A stretch of DNA of 64,000 nt from Sminthopsis crassicaudata (lineage: Eukaryota), in the NCBI RefSeq assembly GCF_048593235.1, contig NC_133620.1:464223261-464287260 (forward strand), given 5' to 3'. Below the pieces are notes generated by a model, which saw nothing but the letters and a program-made list of their open reading frames with translations, was not told the origin of the DNA and did no database searches. Made by a program: the position numbers and the translations under genes. Positions 6,821 to 56,700 of this stretch are shown here, piece by piece. Positions within the stretch are counted from its first letter, which is position 1; each line of letters opens with the position of its first letter.

Positions 6821-7169
6821 ATTGCTAGTCATTATAATTAGGTAGGGTTTTTTAAAAGAAAAATTCTTATTTTTACTAATGTCTTTAAAAAAGAAATCAC
6901 CTTCATTTCCTCATTTCCTAATCAATGAGCCATCCTTTGTAAGACAAACTAAAAAGAGAAAACTGAATATGCCTGTCTGACAGCATATGCTGTGTCTCAC
7001 ACCCATAGTTCCCTTCTCTGCAGAGAAGGAAACAAGATTCTTTCCCCAACTTTTCTCCAGAACAAGCTTACTCATTTTAATTATAAAGAATCCCATTATT
7101 TTTATGAGGGGAAGAGTTCTTTCTGTTTATATTGTTTTAGTGATTGTGCATATTGCTTTCATGGTTCTG

Positions 7170-7639
7170 TGTTGGGATTGCTGAGTGAGGACTGGGGTTG
7201 TCTGGATGGTGACAAGGTGAGAATTCAGGTTTTCTGGACAATTACAAGGTGAGAACTCAGGTTGACTTGATAGAGGGGGCAAGCTCATTGGCTGGGGTGG
7301 TTCTTCCCAGAAGCCCTTGCATTATCCCACGCCCATTCTCTGGGAGGATAAAAAGAGACAGCACTGGGCGCAGAGAGCAGATCGGCCTGGAGAAGGATAA
7401 GAGCTGGAGGAGATTCAGAGCCAGGATTCAAGAAGGAAGACTCTGAATTGCATCAGGCTTGACGGGGCTCTCTGCAGGAAGGGAAGTCACTTCTTTGGAC
7501 AAGAGTTAACAGCAACTGCCTGGAGACAACGGTTCGTTACAGGAAGAAGAATCTGTCGGAGAGATTTGAGTAGAAGACACAGCAGATCTCTTCCCAGAGA
7601 GCGCGATCCAGCAGCTTCTAGAGACAACAGCTCGCTACA
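7170..7639 (+). repeat. 5' LTR (470 bp)
   Basis: Starts TGTTGGG, ends GCTACA. Matches 10219-10688 except at 3 positions (ctctgAattg/ctctgCattg; ctCgCtaca/ctTgTtaca). Inverted CCAAT (ATTGG 7287-7291) and TATA-like GATAAAAAG (7347-7355). Confidence 0.97.
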
Positions 7640-7642
7640 ATT

Positions 7643-7660
7643 TGGCACCCAACGTGGGGC
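7643..7660 (+). other. Primer-binding site 1, tRNA-Lys1,2 (CUU) type
   Basis: TGGCACCCAACGTGGGGC versus canonical TGGCGCCCAACGTGGGGC (17/18; the mismatch is at a CpG). Lies 3 nt after the LTR-terminal CA. Confidence 0.92.
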
Positions 7661-7711
7661 AAGGACTTTTGCTTATCCTGACAAGAGGAGCTAGACCAGA
7701 CCTTCGCAATT

Positions 7712-7729
7712 TGGCGCCCAAACAGGGAC
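7712..7729 (+). other. Primer-binding site 2, tRNA-Lys3 (UUU) type
   Basis: TGGCGCCCAAACAGGGAC versus canonical TGGCGCCCGAACAGGGAC (17/18; the mismatch is at a CpG). Preceded by CA+ATT, like PBS1. Confidence 0.9.
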
Positions 7730-7794
7730 AGACACAGTCCTGATTCTAGTGGAAAAGCTTCAGATCTAGATCTCAGTCTCTCTGACCCAGAACC

Positions 7795-7800
7795 GTGAGT
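7795..7800 (+). promoter_or_regulatory. Candidate retroviral major splice donor (GTGAGT) in the leader
   Basis: gaacc|GTGAGTaa between the PBS and the gag ATG, the usual position. Confidence 0.55.
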
Positions 7801-7897
7801 AACGAGGAAACTTTGTTAAAGATTAAGTGAGCGTGCTAATAGATAAATAAGGAACTTAACTTGTTAAGGGCTAAACCAGGAATCTCTTATAGCTGAA

Positions 7898-9721
7898 ATG
7901 GGGCAGATGTTAGCTATATTCAATCCCTGGACCTCAGCTGACTCAACCTCAGCCCCAGAAGCAACCTCAGCTCCATTCAGGAGTGGTACTATAGAGAGTA
8001 TAATCAAGATAATTGAGGAGCAGAGTTTACTTGTAACCTGGGTACAGATTGCTAAACTCTTGGCTGCATTAAGACGTACATCCCCTTGGTTCTTAGAGGA
8101 AGAAAAGATAGATGTAGATAAATGGAAGCTAGTGGGATATGAAATGAAAGAATTTCAAGCAAAAAATGGGCCTCGTTCAATTTCTGCAGAAGTATTTTAT
8201 ATCTACAACATAGTTCAATTAGCCTTAAACTATCAAGCAAGTTGTAGGAGAAGGAAAAGTTTTAAAAATGAACAGAGGAGGAAGTGTGAGGAAAAAAGGA
8301 AAGATCAAGATCTTTCCCTAGAGCAAGAGGATTTAAATGAGGAATTATGGTATGATTCTCTTGAAGAAGCTTCAACCCTGCCTAGAGAACAGATTATTGA
8401 CAGGCCCACATCAACCCCACCTTCAGAGATGGAGGAAGAAAGAGGGGAAGAGGCAGAAACACAAACAGAATTGCCTGTGAAGAAGCCTAAGCCTATGACA
8501 AGATTAGAAAAAGCATTGGTTAAAGCTAAGAGAGAAGGACAGGATATAAGTGATTTTATACATGCATATCCTGTGATTGAAAATACTGACTCTGTAGGTA
8601 AAAAAAGGAGAAGATATGCACCTTTAGATTTGAATAAAATTAAGGATTTGAAAAAAGGTTGTACCCTTTATGGGGCTACATCAGCTTATGTCAAAATGTT
8701 ACTAGATGGTTTGTCTTATGAAGTCCTAACCCCGAATGATTGGAAATCCATAGCAAGGACATGTCTGGAACCTGGAGAAAATTTATTATGGCTTGCAGAA
8801 TTTCATGAATTATGTAAAATTCAAGTCAGATGCAATTTGGAAATAGGAGTTAACACACAATTCACTTTTGAGCACTTGGCTGGTGAAGGTCGGTATGGAG
8901 AGAATTCGGAACAGATTAATTATACCATGACAATATATGAGCAAATTGCTAAGGCTGCAATAAAAGCTTGGGGTGTCCTCCCTGGACAGAAAGATCGCGG
9001 AGAGGCTTTCACTAAAATACAGCAAGGTCCCAATGAACCTTTTGCAGATTTTGTGGGACGTTTGCAAACTGCTGTCAAAAGAACTATTGGAGAAAATGCA
9101 GCTACAGAAATAATGACCAGACATCTGGCTAAGGAAAATGCCAACGAGATTTGTAAAAGAATTATATGGGGATTAGACAAAGATGCTCCTTTAGAGGAGA
9201 TCATAAGACGCTGTGCTACAGTGGGAACAAATGCTTTTTACACCCGGACAATGATGAATGTGGAAAGACAGGGTCCCTCCTGGCAAGGGCCTTCTAGAGA
9301 AACTCGGCGATGTTTTCAATGTGGAAAAATTGGGCATCTAAGAGCTCAGTGTAGATATGGAGATACAGTGAGAAGACAGGGTGAGAGAAGACCTAAAACC
9401 CCATGTCCAAAATGCAACAGAGCACTCCATTGGGCATCAGAGTGTAGAATAATTCAGGGAAATGGGATGAGGGGCCCAGGTCCAGGGCCCCAGGCAAAAA
9501 AGACTTGGGGCATGATGGCAGCTGATGTTATACCCAAAGAGTCTTTAGAAGGCCAGGACTCTGATTTAATCAACCAGCAGAAAAGCAATCACATGGCAGA
9601 AAGGGATTACCTGATAAGTGAGTCAAAAGGCAATCAGATTGCAAAAATGGATTATACTTGGGGAGAATACAGGCCTTTTAAACCAACAGGGCTATGTCCA
9701 GTGCAAACAATTCCAATGTAA
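7898..9721 (+). CDS. gag: Betaretroviral Gag polyprotein (MA-p12-like-CA-NC), 607 aa, intact
   Basis: MGQ start. MA motif SPWFLEEEKIDVDKWKLVG resembles MPMV CPWFPQEGTIDIKRWRRVG. CA starts PVIEN and includes YGATSAY and LTPNDWKSIAR. Major homology region IQQGPNEPFADFVGRL. Two CCHC knuckles, CFQCGKIGHLRAQC and CPKCNRALHWASEC. Confidence 0.96.
   Translation: MGQMLAIFNPWTSADSTSAPEATSAPFRSGTIESIIKIIEEQSLLVTWVQIAKLLAALRRTSPWFLEEEKIDVDKWKLVGYEMKEFQAKNGPRSISAEVFYIYNIVQLALNYQASCRRRKSFKNEQRRKCEEKRKDQDLSLEQEDLNEELWYDSLEEASTLPREQIIDRPTSTPPSEMEEERGEEAETQTELPVKKPKPMTRLEKALVKAKREGQDISDFIHAYPVIENTDSVGKKRRRYAPLDLNKIKDLKKGCTLYGATSAYVKMLLDGLSYEVLTPNDWKSIARTCLEPGENLLWLAEFHELCKIQVRCNLEIGVNTQFTFEHLAGEGRYGENSEQINYTMTIYEQIAKAAIKAWGVLPGQKDRGEAFTKIQQGPNEPFADFVGRLQTAVKRTIGENAATEIMTRHLAKENANEICKRIIWGLDKDAPLEEIIRRCATVGTNAFYTRTMMNVERQGPSWQGPSRETRRCFQCGKIGHLRAQCRYGDTVRRQGERRPKTPCPKCNRALHWASECRIIQGNGMRGPGPGPQAKKTWGMMAADVIPKESLEGQDSDLINQQKSNHMAERDYLISESKGNQIAKMDYTWGEYRPFKPTGLCPVQTIPM
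9457..9491 (+). promoter_or_regulatory. -1 ribosomal frameshift signal (gag-pro type)
   Basis: Slippery heptamer G GGA AAT (9457-9463) in gag frame, 7-nt spacer, then stem GGGGCCC (9471-9477) / loop AGGTCCA / GGGCCCC (9485-9491). Confidence 0.8.
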
Positions 9722-9725
9722 TTGC

Positions 9726-9918
9726 CAGATGATGAGAAGAGATTTAGAAAGTGGTAAATAGAAGAAAATTAGATAGGTTAACTGCCTGGGGGAGAGGGTT
9801 TGCTTGTATTTCTTCAGCAGGAGAAGGAATCAGATGGGTGCCAACGAGTCATATTCGCCTTGTCCATCAGAGAGAGACAGAAAAAGAGAAAGATCTCAAA
9901 ATAAAGGAGAAGATCTAA
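9726..9918 (+). pseudogene. Decayed integrase C-terminal domain relic
   Basis: Translates as QMMRRDLESGK*KK, then with a frameshift LDRLTAWGRGFACISSAGEGIRWVPTSHIRLVHQ...*. Matches the betaretroviral IN CTD motif W..P..WGRG(F/Y)AC...W.P..H. Confidence 0.85.
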
Positions 9919-38999: not shown

Positions 39000-41720
39000 G
39001 CGCAAAGCCCCCGGGGATATTGGAGGGAGGAGGCAGGCTCGATTTAGCCGAGGCTGGGGCTCTGCCTCCCTTCCCTACCGAGCCTGCACTCAGACTGAGG
39101 GGCCAGAACAGCGGGTTCGCCCCTCATCTTACACACGGGGCCAGGACTCCGATTCTGGACTTTATCCAGATGCTCGCAGACTCCCTCCAAGAGTCACAAA
39201 ACGAAAGTTGGTGAGAAGGGTGGTTCCGAGCAGTCACTGAGCCCGGGGGGCCCCGGGATGGGGGGTGGGACACCCCGACACTGTCGGCCCCCCAACACCC
39301 CAGTGCCACTGGGGTCCTGCGCTGCTCCGAGTACCACCTGGAGGCGGGAGCAGGATGCGAGCACCCTCCCTCCCCCCGGTCTGGTCATCCTCTCTTTTTG
39401 GGGGTGATCCTTCAGGTCCCCAGAGCGCCGTCTGGCCTTTCCCAGATGCACTGAACCTTCTAAGGAGCCCTAGCTCTGGAATGTGTCCGCGGGGCATTTT
39501 GGAGGAGAAAGGAGGGGCCCGGGTCCGGGGTCCCGGGAGCCGAGCCCCAGAGTTTGTGGCCAAGGGGACGCCTTGGGGTCTCCCATAACAAAAGGGGGCT
39601 CCCCCGGCTCGGAGGACGGAGAGAACGGGCTTTGTTCCCTTTAACGGTAATCCTCCCAAGGGCCCCCCAGGGAGCGACTGCAGGCGGCCTTTGGAGCCCT
39701 GGGACGCTCGGCCCCTCCGGGCCCTGACGCCTCTAACTGGGCCTTGGCCTTGGCCCATGGCACCCTCCCGGGGTGTGGCCCCGCGCCTCCCGCCGCGCGC
39801 GGCTCCTTTAAGACGGGGGCGGGGCCCAGGAGGAAAGACAAAGCCCCCGGACGCGCGCGCCCCGCCCCCCTCCCCTCCGGCGCACGGACCGTAGTGCCCG
39901 GATGTCGGTGTCGCCGTCGGTGACAGATGGCGCAGTGTCCGTAAGGAGGGGATTCTCCTGCTTGACCCCTCCGCCGACCCTCTCCCCCTCACTTAGCCCC
40001 CGACTCCGCTGGTCACCCACTGCCTCCCACCCTCATTGGCGCCCTCCCTCCCTCCGAAAACCGAGAGCCGGCGTCCAGCGCTTACATAACTTGACCTTTC
40101 ACCTCTTCACACTGCCCTCTATTGCGCCGCAGCCCAACTACCCGGCAGGAGCCGAGGAGGGGCGGGGCCTTCGAGAGCTGAGCGACGGTCAGCGGGAACC
40201 AATCAGGCGCGAGCGCCGGCTGGCTCTCCGCCTATTGCGGCCGTCGCCAGAAGCGCCACGGGGGAGCAAGTTAGTGTGAGCGCCGGACGGGCGGGGGGAG
40301 GAGGGCAATCTCCCGCCATTTTTCAATAATTTCCTCCGGGGCTGCCGAGGAGTCGCGGCGAACGCTGGATTCCGGGGCTTTGGGCCGAGCTCCGCGGGAG
40401 GCCGGCAGACGCCAGGGAAGAGCGGCGGCGACGGAGGTGACGGCGGCGGCGTGGGGCAGAGCTCCTCGTTCCCTTCCCGAGGGTCCTTTCCACGGCGGCC
40501 TCCGCGCCGGCGGGACTAGAGCGACGAGAGTCGGGGCTCCCGCCTCCCCCCGCCCCGGAGGGAGGGAGGGAGAGCGAGCGAGCGCGCGCAGGAGAGCGCG
40601 CGAGAGCAGCTCGCGCCGGGCCGAGAGCTAGGCCCAGCGTCGCGCGCCGGCCGGGGCTCGCGGAGCAGCCGCCCCCTCCCTCGCCCTGCGCTCCTGTCCC
40701 TTCTCCCCTCCCCCCCGGGCCGGCCTCGGTCCCGCTCCGGCTCGGGCCGGGCCCGGCTCCTGCCGCCGCGATGGCGCCGCTGCTGGGCCGCAAGCCCTTC
40801 CCGCTGGTGAAGCCGCTGCCCGGAGAGGAGCCGCTCTTCGTCATCCCGCACACGCAGGAGGCCTTCCGGACCCGGGAGTATCCTTTGGGGCCTGGTTCTT
40901 GGGCGGCGGGGGCGGCTGTCAGTGGGGTCGGGGGGCGGGCGCGGCCTCGCGGGGCCGGGGGACCTGGCGGGAGCAAAGTGCGCTCGGGTGGAGCCTGGAG
41001 CTTCGGCCGGGGCCCCGGGGAGGGGGCGGGAGGACCACGCGGCGGCCCCGAGGCCGCTTCCTCCTAGTTCTCGGCGCCGCCGCCACTGGCCATTGTTGTC
41101 AGCGCCCCCGGCCCGGGCCCCCTCCAAGTTTGTCCTCCGGGGTACTCCGGTGACACTTGTCCCGCCGCAGCTCTAACAAAGGCCGGGGTCCCGCCGACCC
41201 TTCCGGGCCCAGGGCTTGAGGGGCACTTGTTCGGCCCGGGAGCCCTCGGGTCACTTTTCTCTTGGAAGTAGTCCGGCGAGGGCGGCCGCCAAAACAAAGG
41301 GCCGTGCCCGGCGCGGCCGAGGCGCAGATAGCGGAGCCGGCCCGGAGCTGGGCAGCCTGGGACTTTCCCCGGTCCCGTCCCCGCCTCGGCGGCGACTCTG
41401 CTGCGGGCTCGGCGCCTCGTTTTGGCCCCCCCGCCTTACTTTCTTGGGCACGGGCTGTCATTGCGAGCCGCGCTCCCCTCTCTGTGAGACAGAACTTAGG
41501 GGCTCCCCCAACCTGTTAGTCTGCTGTTAGTGGTGAGGAAGGCTGGGGGGGCTCGGGAGCCCCGGCCACCCTCGCCAAGTCCGGCGGGGTGCCCTGAGTG
41601 CCGGGCCGGGGTCCGAGGGGGAATGCAGAGACAAGTGGCGTAGCCTTGGCCGTGAGGGCTCTGGTGGTGCTGGGGTCCTAGAGCCGAAGCCTCCCGAAGC
41701 ATTTAATGGGACATGTGCTG
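39000..41720. promoter_or_regulatory. CpG island / promoter of BAZ1B (approximate bounds)
   Basis: GC/CpG-rich. GGGGCGGGG boxes, CCAAT (aaccaatcag ~40197-40206) and YY1-type CCGCCATTTT (40313-40322). Confidence 0.85.
40771..40877 (+). CDS. BAZ1B: BAZ1B coding exon 1
   Basis: MAPLLGRKPF...AFRTR(E); followed by the U12-type donor GTATCCTTT. Confidence 0.96.
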
Positions 41721-44700
41721 AAGCTTAACGTTATGTCTCCTGCCATTATTCTTAAGAAGCCTTTGGACGGGAAGGTTTTAATTGGTTTGCATTTTATAGA
41801 TGAAAAATTGCTCTCTCGTGGATTGCTACAAATGGAAGCTCTTCCAGGGTTTTAAACAATCGATGTCCCCGAGGTCCTTAGTGGTCTCCCGGAAGTGAAT
41901 AAGTCCCTGGGTTGGCTAACAGTGATTGCACATAAATCTCCAGTTCCACATTCAGATTTTTTAGGCTCTGCTACTTTTGGTTTTTAGTTTCTTTACCTGT
42001 TGGTATAGACCACATAGGAAATAGTCCAAAACACTTCATTTATAGCTGTTGTTGGTGTGTGTTGAAATATATAGATGTAGAGCTTTCAGCTTCTTTATAA
42101 TTCAAAAAGATAGTTGTGAATAATGTTCTTCGGTTATATAACTGACTTTTCCTGTCAGTAATGGTGATTTATATGAAATCTAACTCAAATGAGCAGACTA
42201 GGTGTGGTTTGAGACTGAGAATTGTAAAAAAAAAACGCTGATAAGAATCATTCCTGAATTTGAATATGTTGGGTTAGGATTGGGTGTTACTTTGAACTTT
42301 GTATATAAACAAGTTTAGTTTTTCCCGTGGAGCTCGTTAAAATAAACCTGTCAGATTAATTTTCTGGTTATGATCATTTTTTGCTTGGTTTCAGCTGGGG
42401 TTTTTTCTATGCTAAGTAAACATTCAAGTATAAAGCACTTTGCAAACCGTAGACTTTTCCAAGTGTGCATGGAAGCTATAGGAGGCACAAGGAAGGAGCA
42501 AGGACTCTTTGAATGTTAATCTGTAGTTGCACCGCACAAGAATGTGACCCCGGGTTTGTCTTGATGAAAGCTAGGCAGCTGGAGATGGAGTTAAGTTGCA
42601 GTTACCAGCCAGAATTGCACTGGGCAGTTGGAATGCTGAGCTGTTATGGCTTCTCACTTTAATATTTTAATTTATTTGAAGTATAAGATTATGTGAAAGT
42701 GAACTGGGTTAGTGAGAACACAGAAGATAAAAAGACAAATTAGAAATTCTTTTATTTTTCCTCACCATTAATAATGCAGCACTTTATTTTTCTTGCTTTT
42801 CTGTTGCTGGAGGAAATGTCAGTTTCAGCTTTTCTGACTGAGGATAAGGTGTGCTGTGCTTGCCTCTTTCCTTCACTCTCCCTACCCTACTCTTCCCATC
42901 AAGCTTTCTTCTGAAAGAAGCTCAATCACATTACAAGGCTAAGGAGAACAAAGGCTCTTTAACTCCACCCCCCTCGCCCCCCCAAAAGGCTGAGTGGCAG
43001 GAAGGCCAATTGTGGCCTTTCTTAGCATAAATGCACTTAAAAATCATTCTGTATTTAAACCTGTTTCTCACTAGTAGTTACTAAAGGGCTGGGATGTTGC
43101 TGTGAGATTTTGTTTTACTGCCTGTGGAGGAATCACTGAAACATGGCAACTTCAAATTGTGATTTTGTGAGTGGTTTTTGGAAAGGTAGATTTATTTTGG
43201 AAAAATTGAAATCTGAAATAGCTACAGTTTCTGCCAAATGGATATTTTTCTTTCATTTTCATTTTTTCTTCTAGTTCCCCTACTGCTATTAAAGTGAACT
43301 AAAAACAACAACAACAACAACAAAAAGAAACAAACCAAAAACCAAACCTATCAGCCTTGAGACAGGATGTAGCTGAAGTCATTTTGCCCCCCTTCCAAAC
43401 TTTTGGAATACTGGTAGATGTTTTATTTGGTTTTTTATTTAACACTGAATTGATGGAGATTAAATTGCCAAGTAAATGCTTGGCCCCTGGCTTCTATAGC
43501 CTTCTCAGCCTTTCTTTTCAGGATTGTTCCTAGTAACTGCTTTTCTGCCATCCTGGCCTAATTGCTCGATGCTCTTCTGCTCAGGTTCCATCTCCTTGCT
43601 TTAGGCCTTTGCTCTGGCTATTTCCCACTCACCATATTCTAGAACCCCTAGCTTCATTCTCCTAGCAGGAGCACAATTTCTTATGAAAAGAATGCAGTAT
43701 CCCTAAGAGCAGCCATTGTTTGTTTTTTCTTTTACTATGTTTTATTGTTGACATTTTTGTATTTACCAGGCACTTGATGTGTTCAAGTCATGTCCAACTC
43801 TTCATGACCCCATGACCCTGGTGTAGCACACCAAGTCCTTCTAACTTGTAATATGCAGTTCTTTATAGCAATTAGCAGAATAACTTAGTTCCATTCTGGT
43901 AAAGTAGGGATCTTTTATAGGAAGACATGATTGTTTTCTGACAATCTTTAGAAGATATCCCAAAAGAAACTATTAAGGGACCTCTGGCATGTCATACATT
44001 TTTAGCCTTTTGAAATAAGAATTAGTATCTGTGAGGAGGAAAACTTGGACAAATGCACTTCAAGCAGGACCTTCTCATTCCAGTTCTCTTGGTATCTGAG
44101 CCAGATTATAGTTAGCCAACCCAAATTTGGCCTTGTGATTTTTGTAGATTTTTGTAGATTTTTGTCCCATTCCTCAAGAGGTTTTCTTAATCTTTCTAGA
44201 CTTGAGAAAGCTAATCTTTGCCTCCTTCCTCCCCCTCTAGTTTGGCTGCTTGCTTATGTTGAGTTATCAGAATTACCCACCCTTTCCTCTTGCTCTTATT
44301 ATTTCATTAGTATAAGGAATTCCCAGTGAAGAAACTTTTTTTTTTTTTTTTTTTTTCCCCAGCTCAGATCAGTAACTGATCACAGGTTATGATGGCCCTT
44401 ACAGCTTTGAAAGCATAGGTCCATATGAGTCAGACAGAACCTGCCTTGCTCTTTCTTACTCTTGAGGCCTGCTTTCTGTACATACATCATGCTGTGCTAT
44501 TTCTCATAGTAGGGATTATCCTAAATGGATTACCTTATACCTGCCCAGATAAAGCTCACCTACTGTTCTGTTGGAAGCCCTGATCTTTCCTGTTGACTTG
44601 GCCATTTTACTCTCTGAAAATTTTGATGTCATTTGGAGATTTCACTGTACATTGTATCTTTTATTGATGTTTTCTTGTTTTTTTCTTTCTGACTGCCCTT

Positions 44701-47700: not shown

Positions 47701-50700
47701 GAAACAGTGTTACAGATGATTACTTTTGGGCTATATTGTGTGTCAACAATATTTTAGGGCTTAAAGCCTGGGAACTTAAGCATCATTTGAAACATTTGTT
47801 TCTATAGGAAAATACATGGGAAGATGGGGAAGTAAGAAGTATCCATTACTGGCTTTTGAGGCTGTGTAGGTAGCTCCATTTTATCCCTGCTACAGCCTAA
47901 GTCAATCATGTGTAGGTACAGAGGTGTTCAAAAGTCAGGAATTGAGAACTTAGGAGAGTTCTTGAACTTCATTTTCTTAAAAAAAAATGTCATTTTTAGG
48001 AATGCGAGTTCTATGTAGAGCAGTATAATGTTTTACTTATCCGACTTCAGTTTCCTTATTTGTAAGGTAGGGATGATGATTTGGCATGATAGAGTACTTA
48101 CATACCTCATGACATTTAGGTAAGTGAGATGTAGTGACATCCTTAAGAAAGGAAACAGACTTAGGGAGGGCAGCTTGACACATCTAGAAAGTAACCAGGG
48201 TTTGAACCAGGAGTTCTTGGCAAAGAATTGATATTTGTTCCATGGTTCAGGAAAGTACTTTGGTACAAGACAAATAAAAGGACTCATATTGTTGATATTC
48301 CTTGTAAAGTTAGGAAATGTGGAACATAATCATTAGAATACAAACTGAAGAATGGCTGTAATAATTGTTTAGCTATTTCTTTCTTTTTTTAATGTGTTAC
48401 TTTTACATCACCAGCATTTCCTGGCATTTTCTTCCTCATCCTCATCTCAGAGTTATCCCTTATAACAGAAGAAGAGAAAAAGTTCAGTAGAATTGATCAA
48501 TAAATTGATAATATTCAATAGTGGGATTTTGGGTGGTAGTATTTTCACATCCATATTTCACCAAATTCTGCAAAGAAGGGAGGAACCGGGACCTTCCTTA
48601 AATAGTTTTTGGGACAGACCTTGCTCATTATTGTTGAACAGCATTCAATTTTGATATTGGTTTGATGCATCTGTTGTTCCTTGGAGACATGGCTTCTGTT
48701 TTCCTGGCTCTGCTTACTTCCCTTTATCCTAGTTCATATCAGTTTACTTGTGCTTCTTGACATTTATTGTATAAAATAGCACTCATTATTTTCCTTTGTC
48801 TTGGAGGAAACTGCTCCTACAGGTGTGGATGAGCACCTGCTCTGCAGCTTCATCTTAGCTTCCAATGGCAGGGGCTGAAAGTTGCTGAACTTTGCCTGTG
48901 GCTGTATGGGTGGGTCCATCCCAGGCTTGAATTGGTCTCATTGACTGTTCCACCACTCGGAAAATTATCACCAGAAGACCAAGAAAAGAAAAGGGGGTGG
49001 GGGAGCTTAGGTTTTCCTCTTCAAAAGACTTAGGTAAGATAGTCCCTCAGGCCCTTTCCATCTCTAAAATTGTGATTGCCTTTTAAAAGAAGATATTTGG
49101 AAATTTTTTTTTTTTTTGAGTCTGGGGTTAAGTGACTTGCCCAGGGTCACACAGCTAGGAAGTGTTAAGTGTCTGAGAACCAGATTTGAACTCAGGTCCT
49201 CCTGAATTCAGGGCTGGTGCTCTATCCACTGCGCCACCTAGCTGCCCCTGATACTTGGAATTTGAAGGTAGAATTAAAAGGTAAAGAAGCTTCTTAGAGT
49301 GAAGGAATCTTGAACCCCACCCTGGGATGGAAGAGAAATTGTTCCTTCTACTTCTTTTTTTTGGTCAGTGAATAGAATTTCATTTTCCTGGATTGGAACA
49401 CTTGTCTGGGGTTTCGGAAGGGCTCCTTCAGTTATTGTGTTCTTGACTTGGTGTCATTGCAGATAATGTAGCTTCCTGCATTAATTCCTGATCTTAACAA
49501 AGTCTCCTGAACCTTAGTTTCTTCATTTTTGAAGTGGGAGACAAAAACAATTGTTGAATCAAATAAAATAATGGTTTTGTGTATGGTGTATATCATCCGT
49601 AGGAAAAAAACATTTCTCTCAGTCTTTTGGTGGTCTTTGCTGAACAAAAGGTGCCCTAATATTAGGGTGAGCTGGAGGGAGATCTTTCAGCAACTACATT
49701 TTTTTTTTTTTTTTGTTTTTTCCCCCCAAGAGGATTATAGATTATCAGAGTAAAGCAAATGACTTAAGTTTATGTAGCTCAGTGGTACTAAGTGGTAGAT
49801 AGATGATTCAAACCCAGTGCTTCTACCTCCAAATGCAGTCATCTTCCTCCTGTGTCACCAACAGAGCCACCCACAAAGCCAAATGCTTCCGAGTTTGTTC
49901 TGGTTTCCGTGCCAGAAAGCAGCTGATGGTTTCTAAATTATTGGGCTGTCTTTTTGACTGTTGGTAAGAAGTATTGATCGTTTTCTTATGAGATTATTAC
50001 TATCTGAATAATTGGAATGAGGCTGGTTAAAGTTTTTGTTAAAAAACAGATCTTTAACTTGAGGGGTAAAACTGAGCCACATTGAAAACTGCCAATGATA
50101 TTTTTATGGACAATATATACTATGTTCATCTCTTGGACCTTGAGTGGCATATACCTTTATCGGTAGTTTATAATTCAGGAATGAAAACCAGCTTTGAGTA
50201 GTTTGGATTTTCCTCCCAAAGTAATGGGTAGAGCGTTTCTTCTTATATCTTCATTTGAATTCTTTGATCTTTATAATTTTGTTATATTTACCTTTTGTGT
50301 GTATGTGGGGGGGGTTTCTTTCTTTTACATTGTATAGCTCTTTTCATACTTCATTATCACAGGAATTATTTCTTATAGCGTAGTAATTTTCTATTACATT
50401 CACATCCTACAAATTGTTTATTTGTTTTTCAATTGATGAGCATCTACTTTGTTTCCAAGTCTTTGCCAGTATAAAGTTTTTGATGTATGTTGGGCTTTTC
50501 TTTGACTTCTCTTGTGGTCTGAGAAGAGCAGTCTTAATATGAACATTTTAATCATTTACTTAACATATGTAACTCCAAATCTAATAGGATGGTTGGACCA
50601 ATTAAAAACCTCAGCGGTATTGGTATATCCTTTCCATAGTCCCTCTTCCATTGCTAGATGTGATGTAATTCAGTTTTGATGGCATTAGTCATTTGAAGCA

Positions 50701-53700: not shown

Positions 53701-56700
53701 GTTCCATTTCTGTTGTGAAAACACCTAAGATATTCAGGTGCTATGACTTAATTCAGTAACAAGCTGTGTCTATCTTATTTACTAGACCCTTTTCTTTTTT
53801 TGTTTTGGTTTTCTTTTCATAGGTTGGGAAGGAAAAAATGCTGAAAGTAAAGATTGTGAAAATTCATCCTTTGGAGAAGGTAGATGAGGAGACCACTGAG
53901 AAGAAATCTGATGGTGCCTGTGATTCTCCATCAAGTGACAAAGAGAACTCTGGTCAGGTGGCCCAGGATCATCAGAAGAAGGATCCCATCATAAAAGAGG
54001 ATGAAGGCAGGAAAGATAGTATTAGTATGTATGGTGTTAGTTTTAATCAAGGGTTTGTAATCAAAATCCAGTTCATTTTGTGCTATTCAGAAATGTTTGT
54101 CATTTAACCTCCGGGATGAGTTTATAGAACAAGAAGCAGACACTTAAATCTTCCTAGGGCAATTGAACAAGGCGGCAGCCCTGAAGTCCATTTGTTGTGT
54201 ATTTCCTGTGTTTTTGTGAATGTATGAGTACCTCAATTGCTAAGGAAGCCCTAAAGAAAAGAATGAGACTCAACTAAAGAAAAATGTAACTAAATGGCAG
54301 AAGTTTTTTTTAATTTCTTAATTTAAAATTTTAATTTAATTATTAATTTATTAATTATTTTTATTAAATTTATTAATTTTAAATTTTTAAAGTTTTTAAT
54401 TTGTTTTTAGTTATATACAAAGAAGACTTTAAAAAAAAAATGTTGTTAAAAAATTCTCTTCCTCCTGCCCCCTTTCCTTCCTTGAGAAGGCAAGCAGTGT
54501 ATTATTTATATATGTAAAGTCATGCAAATTTTCCATATTTTCATATTAGCCTTGGGCAAAAAAAGAAAATTCACATATAAAACAAAGTTTTTTAAAAACA
54601 TGCCTCAATTTGCAGTTAGACATTTATTAATTCTTTATCTGGAGGTGTTGACATTCACTAGAGTAGCTAAATCAATCACAATTGATCATATATTTCTGCC
54701 TCCCGATACAGTGATCTTCTGCTCACTTTACATTAGTTCATGTGAGTCTTCCCCAGTTTTTCTGAAATGATCCTGCTCATCATTTCTTAGAGAACAATAG
54801 AGCCATCATATGCATATACCATAATTGGTTCAGCTGTTCCCTTAATTGATAGGCATTCCCTCAATTTCCAATTCTTTGCATCACAAAAAGAGCTGCTGTA
54901 AACAAATGGGTCTTTTTCACTTTTTTTTGTGACTCTTTGGCATATAAAGTTTTCGTGAATTGATAAAAACTTGGCCTGGTGGTATATGGTTTAATAAAAT
55001 CTGTCTTTGGTTTTGATTTGAAACCTAGGAGACTGCAATTAGTGTCCAAGATAGGAGTTAGCAGGGAATTCCCATTTGTGACTTTAATTCAGCTTTTCCT
55101 CTTTTTGAGCAAGGTACAAACTAAATTGGGCTTCCCTTTTCCCACCAGCATTTCCCAGTCCAGCTAAGTGGTTGTTAATCAAAATTGTCGAGGCAAACTA
55201 TTCTTCTTCTCCTCTTCCCACTAAAAGAACACAAATTTGTTAATTTTTATGAGCATTTTTATTCAAGTGTAATATTTAACACTACTTTTAACTTTTCTAC
55301 TTCTGGAAAAGTTTTTTTTTTTTTTTTTTTAATTTTTTTTCTTTTTGGCTAGGCAGTTGAGATTAAATGTTAGTAAGTAAGTGTCTGAGGTTAAATTTGA
55401 ACTCATGTCCTCCTGACTTCAAGACTAGTGCTCTATTCACTGTGCTGTCTAGCTGTCCCTGAAAAAGTATTTTTACAAATAAGTTTGGAAGCTAGAAGTA
55501 GCATATGCTTGAAAGAGTGACATCATAAAGTATACTTCATCTATTAACCTATTAAATTCTTGAATAATATATTCATCATGGCATAAACTCATGATCTTTT
55601 TTGTCCCTTTTATTTTTTTATTTTATTTTAAAATCTTTTTTAATTGAGGCTTTGTTCTTTTTTAATTGAAAAAGAAAATAAAAACAAATAATAAATGATA
55701 TTTATATATAATATTATATAATGTAAAATATATCCTATATGATATAAAATTATATATAATAAATTGATAAACAATAAATAATAAAATAAAATTAATAAGT
55801 AAATGACTTGAATAGTTATCAGCCATCCCCACTGTTCTGTTTTGATCCCTTTTATGTAGGATCTTTCAGAATATTAAAAATGCTATAATATCCTAAAGTT
55901 TAGGAAATTAGGACTCAGTTTTTTTGGGGGATATTCTTTCCAACTTTTTCTAATATAGACTAATTTGGGGGGACCAGTTCATTTAAACATTAACAACTTA
56001 GCCCTTAGATTCTTTTTTTTTTTTTTTTTTTTTTGAGGCTGGGGTTAAGTGACTTGCCCAGGGTCACACAGCTAGGAAGTATTGAATGTCTGAGACCAGA
56101 TTTGAACTCGGGTCCTCCTGAATTCAAGGCTGGTGCTCTATCCAATGTGCCACCTAGCTGCCCCTAGCCCTTAGATTCTAATGTTTCTTCTTACAAAATT
56201 AAATAACTTAGTTCTGTCTTAAAAATTAGAATTATCATGCGACAATAACATGCCGATATATGTGCTTTGTATAAGGATATTATAGTAATGGTAATTATTA
56301 CATGATATTTTACATGGCTTTGGCAAATTTTAAATTTAAGCATTCTTTGGAAGTATTTTTATCATATGAATAGGAGTCAGGTAATAAATACTTGAATTCT
56401 TCAGGGGGAAAGAGTTGTATTCTAGACTAGTAGCCTAGGATCAATAGGACAGTGTGATTTTCAGACCTGAGATTTATTTTTCTATTATTTTTTCCTTAAC
56501 TTTTTTTTTATCCAGGTGACAGGGCACGCAGGTCTCCTAGAAAACTCCCCACCTCACTGAAGAAAGGGGAAAAGAAATGGGCTCCTCCAAAATTTCTGCC
56601 TCACAAATATGATGTGAAACTTCAAAATGAAGAGAAGGTATGTTGATTCTTCACCTTCCTTCTCAGAAGTATCAGGGAAAATTGAAAGAGTTGAAAATTG

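What the first reader, a model, noticed from the sequence alone, without database searches (positions are those of the whole stretch)
7636..7729. Two tandem primer-binding sites for different lysine tRNAs (Lys1,2 and Lys3), each behind a CA-ATT U5-like end
Seen: TGGCACCCAACGTGGGGC (7643-7660) and TGGCGCCCAAACAGGGAC (7712-7729). Each is 17/18 identical to the canonical Lys1,2 or Lys3 PBS, and each mismatch is a CpG-type G>A. Both are preceded by the same CA+ATT junction, and the flanks are similar (ctagagacaacagctcgctaca versus gctagaccagaccttcgca). Established: retroviruses normally have one PBS; MPMV/HERV-K-type viruses use Lys1,2, while MMTV and HIV-1 use Lys3. Inference: the leader may be a chimera of two ERV families, or a dual-primer design letting a non-autonomous RNA be copied in particles that package either tRNA. 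Priming at PBS2 would give an LTR 69 nt longer that still ends in an integrase-compatible CA. This copy's 3' LTR shows it was primed at PBS1.
Basis: partly seen in the sequence, partly recalled or inferred. Interest (0 to 1): 0.82.

Follow-up and report, generated by a model that had tools for sequence, protein, structure and literature searches.

The report
Endogenous retrovirus using two primer sites
A large family of young retrovirus-like elements in this marsupial-type genome carries two starting sites for copying its RNA, each matching a different lysine tRNA, and the ends of its inserted copies indicate that both were likely used, whereas retroviruses normally have one.

Summary
The window holds a 3.5 kb, internally deleted, young provirus (470-bp LTRs, 6-bp target duplication) of an env-less betaretrovirus-like family, likely the MEBrv 3 clade. 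PBS1 (Lys-CTT) and PBS2 (Lys-TTT) match host tRNA genes; 1,558 places carry the site-2 junction. Both sites likely prime. Of 65 fetched proviruses, 59 end at the first CA and 6 have LTRs about 69 nt longer ending at the second CA; 274 long ends were counted, and 16 of 30 sampled are solo LTRs with target duplications. Some copies hold antisense tRNA bodies read past the PBS: Lys-CTT at site 1, Lys-TTT at site 2. One integrant records both primers. Collapsed single-PBS copies are rare (43) and split 17:16 between the two PBS types. Full-length gag-pro-pol copies and older subfamilies are dual too, so neither the non-autonomous trick nor the two-family chimera is supported. Origin (possibly tRNA read-through capture) and benefit are inferred only. 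Ten literature searches found no natural precedent; one unchecked scan note describes LTRs with former primer sites in another genome.

The parts
7164..7169 (+). 5' target-site duplication (GTTCTG)
   Evidence: identical to 10689-10694
7170..7639 (+). 5' LTR, short form, 470 bp, TG...CA
   Evidence: 3 differences from the 3' LTR in 470 bp
7523..7541 (+). internal stretch resembling the U5 end, about 98 nt before the real end, with no PBS behind it
   Evidence: matched by the U5-end pattern in the family copies shown; not followed up
7640..7642 (+). linker 1 (ATT here; 2 nt in most copies)
7643..7660 (+). PBS1, complementary to tRNA-Lys(CTT) (Lys1,2), one G>A; main primer site
   Evidence: host gene L162; 59 of 65 proviruses end at the CA before it; Lys-CTT read-through in L164, L165, L170, L218
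7661..7708 (+). 48-nt spacer ending in the second CA; forms the end of the long LTR
   Evidence: 274 exact long ends followed by C/G; target duplications at this CA; 69-nt version in older subfamilies
7709..7711 (+). linker 2 (ATT)
   Evidence: 3 nt in 77 of 77 junctions
7712..7729 (+). PBS2, complementary to tRNA-Lys(TTT) (Lys3), one G>A; minor primer site
   Evidence: host genes L174, L175; Lys-TTT read-through in L177, L216 and older L173, L176, L178
7730..7897 (+). rest of the leader, with a splice-donor-like motif at 7795
   Evidence: sequence; donor function not tested
7898..9721 (+). gag frame (607 aa from the ATG), running up to the internal deletion
   Evidence: Pfam Gag_p10, Gag_p24, Gag_p24_C, weak zf-CCHC_5
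9608..9682 (+). junction of a roughly 3 kb deletion that removes most of pro and pol
   Evidence: blastn against a 6.5 kb natural copy
10205..10218 (+). polypurine tract
   Evidence: sequence; same tract before 11 long 3' LTRs
10219..10688 (+). 3' LTR, short form: this copy was likely primed at PBS1
10689..10694 (+). 3' target-site duplication (GTTCTG)

Best explanation
This is an internally deleted copy of a large env-less betaretrovirus-like family whose leader holds two complete primer-binding sites 69 nt apart, and reverse transcription likely starts at either: about nine times in ten from tRNA-Lys(CTT) at the first site and about once in ten from tRNA-Lys(TTT) at the second. Shown: two LTR end classes at the two CAs, both with 6-bp target duplications, and antisense bodies of the matching tRNA behind each site in some copies. 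Inferred: priming at site 1 gives short LTRs; priming at site 2 copies spacer and PBS1 into both LTRs; RNA from either form again has both sites, so the choice would be made anew in each cycle. A plus-strand stop product ending in the Lys-CTT copy would sometimes anneal to the site-2 complement through the shared first 8 nt, which collapses the pair to one PBS of either type. Origin (inferred, about 0.45): a single-PBS Lys3 ancestor was cross-primed by tRNA-Lys(CTT), the plus strand read through the whole tRNA and rejoined just before the old LTR end, so the spacer would be a decayed antisense tRNA. Benefit (inferred, about 0.5): a second primer pool as back-up, possibly against silencing by 3' tRNA fragments.
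For: Long ends: 274 exact matches followed by C/G, control 0; 30 of 30 sampled contain PBS1; of these, 16 are solo LTRs with a 5-6/6 target duplication, 11 follow the polypurine tract, 2 other, 1 unresolved. Proviruses: of 77 fetched 5' junctions 72 are young duals, 65 have a 3' LTR in reach, 59 short and 6 long (9%, 95% CI 3-19%). Four of the 6 long have a 6/6 duplication at the CA and 2 have it after a retained ATT. Read-through: Lys-CTT body after the short end (L164, L165 whole tRNA, L170, L218); Lys-TTT body after the long end (L177, L216; older L173, L176, L178). L218 is one integrant (duplication CATACT) with a long 3' LTR and a 5' Lys-CTT read-through. Collapsed copies: 43 against 1,558 site-2 junctions; 24 Lys1,2, 18 Lys3, 1 hybrid; 17:16:1 after merging three local clusters. 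Long copies are not one clade: 21 label changes on an LTR tree, and the nearest neighbour is short for 18 of 32. Origin: L163 shows Lys-CTT at site 2; L165 re-enacts the capture; old spacers align end to end with antisense tRNA-Lys (33-35 of 58 identities, shuffle p 0.002-0.04); L173 has the same 11-nt end before both sites.
Against: No biochemical test was run. Long and short labels cluster slightly on the tree (21 changes against 26.4 +/- 2.1; 6 of 300 shuffles as low). Collapsed copies could also arise by a template switch between the shared 8 nt without site-2 priming, and 20 of 22 examined have short 3' LTRs. Both primers in one complex rests on one locus (L218); L245 has a one-primer reading. 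The spacer-tRNA likeness is weak: an unrelated antisense tRNA-Arg reaches p 0.004-0.31 and the young spacer p about 0.58. PBS2 is hardly more conserved than the spacer in young copies (diversity 0.020 against 0.024, in a sample enriched for intact PBS2). The leader RNA folds no better than shuffles (z 0.87). Samples come from best hits or from the start of contig C1.
Confidence: 0.88

Rival explanations
1. Both sites prime, but the pair is a tolerated accident: PBS2 stays intact only because occasional priming re-templates it and because few source loci made most copies. This rival concerns the benefit, not the dual use.
For: Site 2 is used in only about 9% of copies; no excess conservation over the spacer; single-PBS copies of 6.0-6.4 kb with intact target duplications exist.
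Against: One-way loss is seen in about 2.7% of junctions, yet the pair persists across subfamilies whose LTRs align at only about 75-90% in pieces and whose spacers took two different 21-nt deletions. The collapsed copies carry several different U5 alleles, with no sign of a burst.
Confidence: 0.45
2. The second site is kept for something other than priming (Gag binding, packaging or dimer formation); priming there is a side effect.
For: In MMTV the Lys3 PBS itself is needed for Gag binding and packaging (PMC8096270, passages); site 1 dominates priming.
Against: Collapsed copies with only the Lys1,2 PBS are as common as those with Lys3, though these are end products whose own packaging was not tested. 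No stable fold was predicted.
Confidence: 0.25
3. The pair arose by recombination between a Lys1,2 ERV family and a separate Lys3 family, or by plain duplication of the U5 end plus PBS followed by a primer switch.
For: Switches between Lys1,2 and Lys3 are known in SERV and ETn (PMC8775094, PMC7472051); L173 has the same U5 end twice; the published MEBrv 3 representative has another LTR and one Lys1,2-like site.
Against: No LTR ending at the second CA without PBS1 among 30 sampled; 27 of 30 PBS2-anchored loci have PBS1 upstream and the other 3 are collapsed or truncated; duplication alone does not explain the 50-60 nt between the repeats.
Confidence: 0.35
4. PBS2 is a passive scar and long LTRs come from a single aberrant founder or from events after insertion.
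For: Slight clustering of long copies on the tree.
Against: Target duplications directly at the second CA in solo and paired LTRs; long ends also in older subfamilies, two with duplications (L204, L266); Lys-TTT read-through at site 2; short nearest neighbours for 18 of 32 long copies.
Confidence: 0.03

Closest known systems
MEBrv 3, marsupial endogenous betaretrovirus 3 (PMC11334065; sections 7 and 10, passages and supplement part 4 read)
   Same: Env-less class II element with gag-pro-pol, young identical LTRs, very many copies; Gag and 3' leader clearly alike by eye.
   Different: The published representative has an unrelated LTR sequence and one Lys1,2-like site, with no second one visible in its leader. 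Main text and supplement have 0 hits for PBS, primer or tRNA.
SERV (PMC8775094, passages), ETn/MusD (PMC7472051, section 4.3) and VL30 (as cited in PMC8775094)
   Same: One family uses different primers (Lys3 and Lys1,2 in SERV and ETn); mismatched PBS alleles lie scattered over the tree and are proposed to escape tRNA fragments.
   Different: The passages read describe one PBS per provirus, switching between copies; here both sit in tandem on one RNA and give two LTR lengths.
Engineered MLV and HIV-1 vectors with two PBSs (Voronin and Pathak; Li, Kang and Morrow): recalled, not retrievable
   Same: As recalled, initiation at both sites and deletion between them.
   Different: Artificial and, as recalled, often unstable; here natural and kept across subfamilies.
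Drosophila Gypsy with 5' and 3' PBSs (PMC1635307, abstract and outline only); bipartite PBS of Ty1/Ty3 (mentioned in PMC8096270 passages)
   Same: More than one tRNA-binding site on the RNA.
   Different: One tRNA species, sites at opposite ends, only the 5' one needed for cDNA synthesis; no second LTR end.

Membership tests
Class II (betaretrovirus-like) ERV | LTRs TG...CA, polypurine tract, 6-bp target duplication | tested here: met
   56 of 59 short-LTR copies have a 5-6/6 duplication
Class II (betaretrovirus-like) ERV | Gag and Pol closest to betaretroviruses | tested here: met
   Pfam Gag_p10/p24, RVP, RVT_1, RVT_thumb, RNase_H and integrase domains; best PDB hits 7sr6 (E 4e-153) and integrases 7usf/3jca, far above HIV-1 RT; that these entries are HERV-K and MMTV proteins is recalled; no RT tree was built
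Class II (betaretrovirus-like) ERV | lysine tRNA primer | tested here: met
Class II (betaretrovirus-like) ERV | a single PBS 2-4 nt behind the 5' LTR | tested here: not met
   two sites with two LTR end classes; this is the variant trait
MEBrv 3 clade | gag-pro-pol without env, about 7.3 kb, LTR about 469 nt | tested here: met
   copies of 6.3-7.4 kb with gag-pro and pol frames and no further frame of 200 aa before the 3' LTR; LTR about 360-485 nt
MEBrv 3 clade | RT groups with MEBrv 3 in a tree | not tested
   the published sequence was only read; Gag likeness was judged by eye
MEBrv 3 clade | same LTR as the published representative | tested here: not met
   by eye a different LTR; so a distinct LTR lineage of, or beside, the clade
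Dual-initiating retroelement | tRNA-primed DNA synthesis from both sites shown biochemically | not testable with these tools
   genomic fossils only

The most novel reading that the evidence does not exclude
A retrovirus gained a second working primer site by copying its whole tRNA primer into its own leader, which moved the LTR end, and selection has kept the two-primer switch across subfamilies as a hedge against tRNA supply and 3' tRNA-fragment silencing; the genome then holds over a thousand scored outcomes of primer choice in the germ line.
Probability: 0.3. Interest if true: 0.87.

Novelty: new variant of a known kind. Interest (0 to 1): 0.74.

Why it matters
The one-PBS rule fixes where an LTR ends. 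Here a natural, recently very active family breaks it, and each insertion records its primer in its LTR length. That gives a genome-scale readout of primer competition, two primers in one particle, PBS mismatch resolution and tRNA read-through in the germ line, which have been studied mostly with engineered vectors (recalled). It makes the proposed trade-off between priming and tRNA-fragment silencing (PMC7472051) testable. It suggests a route by which families such as SERV and ETn could switch between Lys3 and Lys1,2: a dual stage followed by collapse. Long solo LTRs also scatter a tRNA-fragment target inside LTRs, and repeat annotation would split one family in two.

Tried and rejected
Host tRNA gene for the common PBS1 variant: four pattern searches found none. 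The 12 and 5 hits were ERV copies but for one unrelated place; ARAGORN called no gene in the 5 hits or the single hit. Isodecoder origin of the G>A in PBS2: 11 of 77 junctions carry it, but my samples were enriched for it, and run X1 shows the C>T and G>A decay products at similar depth, so CpG decay suffices. RNA fold of the leader: not better than shuffles. Expression: no holder on record as RNA was listed; runs guessed to be RNA cover the stretch as contigs only, which shows nothing on level or strand. Laying DNA contigs on the old relative L173 gave no clear single-PBS ancestor. Host genes nearby: 26 of the window's 31 frames of 130 aa or more were scanned and gave no Pfam hit. L169 was dropped as read-through evidence because the published MEBrv 1 has nearly the same junction; L161, L167, L171 and L172 were dropped as tRNA retrocopies or another LTR. 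mis-called five ends through a loose pattern; one search corrects them. Papers not held. PMC8247158, PMC12789967, PMC12853362: passages searched, nothing relevant.

Full report
Observation. Both 18-mers are where stated, each behind CA+ATT. Each is the only match in the window at up to 3 mismatches and no shuffle of 100 gave one. They lie in a provirus at 7170-10688 with 470-bp LTRs (3 differences), the target duplication GTTCTG, a polypurine tract and a gag frame with Gag_p10, p24 and p24_C domains. About 3 kb of pro and pol are missing relative to a 6.5 kb natural copy. The 3' LTR ends at the first CA. Host genes called tRNA-Lys(CTT) and tRNA-Lys(TTT) by ARAGORN match the perfect forms of PBS1 and PBS2.

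Family. The own genome (G000, 3.24 Gb, 8 contigs) holds 1,558 exact site-2 junctions (spacer end, PBS, leader) and 1,763 exact PBS2-plus-leader matches. Both sites were present in 30 of the 30 best hits fetched (biased by the query) and in 27 of the first 30 PBS2-anchored loci; of the other three, two are collapsed and one is truncated. Of 62 LTR pairs, 22 are identical and 51 differ by 1% or less. Copies of 6.3-6.5 kb with long gag-pro and pol frames carry the same pair; the Pol's best solved relatives are 7sr6 and integrases 7usf/3jca, recalled as HERV-K and MMTV. The Gag resembles, by eye, that of MEBrv 3 in the supplement of PMC11334065, the env-less clade that dominates dasyurid genomes; that representative has another LTR and one Lys1,2-like site. 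The host is therefore likely a dasyurid marsupial (inference). Of the public runs listed, 20 from 7 studies of one organism hold the stretch or part of it.

Both sites set LTR ends. The spacer end followed by C or G occurs 274 times, control 0; the short end followed by C or G occurs 3,532 times with a looser pattern that includes older subfamilies. All 30 long ends fetched contain PBS1: 16 are solo LTRs with a 5-6/6 target duplication, 11 follow the polypurine tract, 2 are other structures and 1 was unresolved. Of 77 fetched 5' junctions (40 best blast hits, 37 first pattern hits on C1), 5 were not young duals and 7 had no 3' LTR in reach; of the remaining 65, 59 are short and 6 long (9%, CI 3-19%), with two segmental duplicate pairs among the short. 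Four long copies have the duplication directly at the second CA; in L108 and L130 it follows a retained ATT. On a FastTree of 95 of 98 assembled LTR rows (long ones over-sampled; two duplicates and one short row dropped) the long/short label changes 21 times against 26.4 +/- 2.1 in shuffles (6 of 300 as low), and 18 of 32 long copies have a short nearest neighbour. This is slight clustering with many origins; recombination blurs such a tree.

The primers left copies of themselves. Of 12 loci fetched from 72 Lys-CTT 3'-end matches, 6 from 38 Lys-TTT matches and 3 picked by position, several are proviral junctions where the PBS runs on into antisense tRNA, as expected when the plus strand passes the usual stop (established retrovirology, recalled). 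Short end plus Lys-CTT body: L164, L165 (whole tRNA, rejoining 7 nt before linker 2), L170, L218, and 5 nt in L166. Long end plus Lys-TTT body: L177 and L216, and older-subfamily L173, L176, L178. Long end plus Lys-CTT body: L163 (cross-priming). L168 and L217 join PBS1 to a Lys-TTT arm and are unexplained. L218 is one integrant (duplication CATACT) with a long 3' LTR and a 5' Lys-CTT read-through, which most simply needs both primers in one complex.

Collapse. 43 places have the short end joined to one PBS and the leader: 24 Lys1,2, 18 Lys3, 1 hybrid; 17:16:1 after merging three local clusters. An even split is what a mismatched PBS duplex resolved either way gives, as described for SIV (PMC6450007, passages) and proposed for ETn/MusD. 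Of 22 examined, 20 have short 3' LTRs, 1 long, 1 none. A template switch at the shared 8 nt gives the same product, so collapse does not prove site-2 priming.

Age and origin. Older subfamilies, whose LTRs align to the window's only in pieces at about 75-90%, carry the same two sites with a 72-nt interval; two different 21-nt deletions gave 51-nt intervals. Long ends occur there too, two with target duplications. The old intervals align end to end with antisense tRNA-Lys (33-35 of 58; p 0.002-0.04 in 7 related copies, sense and reversed controls p 0.08-0.85), but antisense tRNA-Arg also scores (p 0.004-0.31) and the young spacer does not. L173 has the same 11-nt end before both sites. With L163 and L165 as modern examples of the two steps, I favour capture of a read-through tRNA copy (about 0.45) over duplication or chimera (about 0.35 together). 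None is shown.

A PBS1 allele with one substitution and one inserted base is found in about a quarter of junctions (33 of 118, sample partly enriched), in 11 of 25 short and 10 of 29 long copies and in older subfamilies. It is scattered on the tree (23 changes against 21.6) and nearly unlinked to flanking markers that are linked to each other across the PBS. No host gene for it was found. L218 suggests that it is primed by ordinary Lys-CTT. It resembles the mismatched PBS alleles proposed as escape from tRNA fragments in ETn/MusD and SERV, but its frequency in short copies is higher than 50:50 reversion from the long-copy frequency predicts (p 0.0015), and L224 shows exactly its 18 nt at site 2. 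This is unexplained.

Known systems. Ten full-text searches found no natural tandem, doubly used PBS. They cover open-licence papers only, and Repbase/Dfam notes were not searchable. The nearest cases are primer switching between single-PBS copies (SERV, ETn, VL30), Gypsy's 5' and 3' sites for one tRNA, and engineered two-PBS vectors (recalled). PMC11334065 does not mention PBS or tRNA. One unchecked scan note from another genome describes LTRs holding former primer modules; searches by sequence and by place found nothing.

Verdict. Use of both sites is strongly supported by genomic fossils (0.88); origin and benefit are inferred. New variant of a known kind, interest 0.74.

Noticed in passing
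PBS1 in L132, L148, L151, L153-L156, L158-L160, L219-L230; L224:1497-1514: A common PBS1 allele (one substitution, one inserted base) is scattered over haplotypes and subfamilies, has no host tRNA gene in this assembly, and once stands as exactly 18 nt at site 2. It may be an escape allele or come from an unknown primer.
   Followed up: partly
L168 and L217 (second junction): PBS1 is followed by the antisense T arm of the other tRNA (Lys-TTT) in two separate loci.
   Followed up: no
window 7523-7541: A stretch inside the LTR resembles the U5 end, about 98 nt before the real end, with no PBS behind it; possibly an earlier LTR end.
   Followed up: no
L108, L130: Long 3' LTRs in which the 3-nt linker was kept before the target duplication, suggesting poorer end processing at site 2.
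   Followed up: partly
L169; MEBrv 1 in the supplement of PMC11334065: The MEBrv 1 junction reads as a Lys1,2 PBS, five bases of tRNA-like extension and the 3' half of a Lys3 PBS: perhaps a fixed fossil of a primer switch in another family.
   Followed up: partly
G000 matches: Most sampled matches to tRNA-Lys 3' ends are not tRNA genes but read-through copies at LTR ends or retrocopies; ARAGORN calls some of them tRNA genes (L164, L165), which would inflate tRNA counts.
   Followed up: partly
L176: An older copy with a Lys3-type sequence at site 1 and a partly duplicated spacer before site 2.
   Followed up: no
L100, L123, L164, L217: Tandem, nested or inverted arrangements of family copies.
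   Followed up: no
window 20001-22000, 29001-30000, 39001-42000: G+C-rich islands (0.59-0.73), probably promoters or exons; the long frames there gave no Pfam hit.
   Followed up: partly
window 11240-11388, 49103-49251, 55378-55459, 56019-56167: Copies of a short interspersed repeat (families D2/D3), recalled as a marsupial SINE.
   Followed up: no
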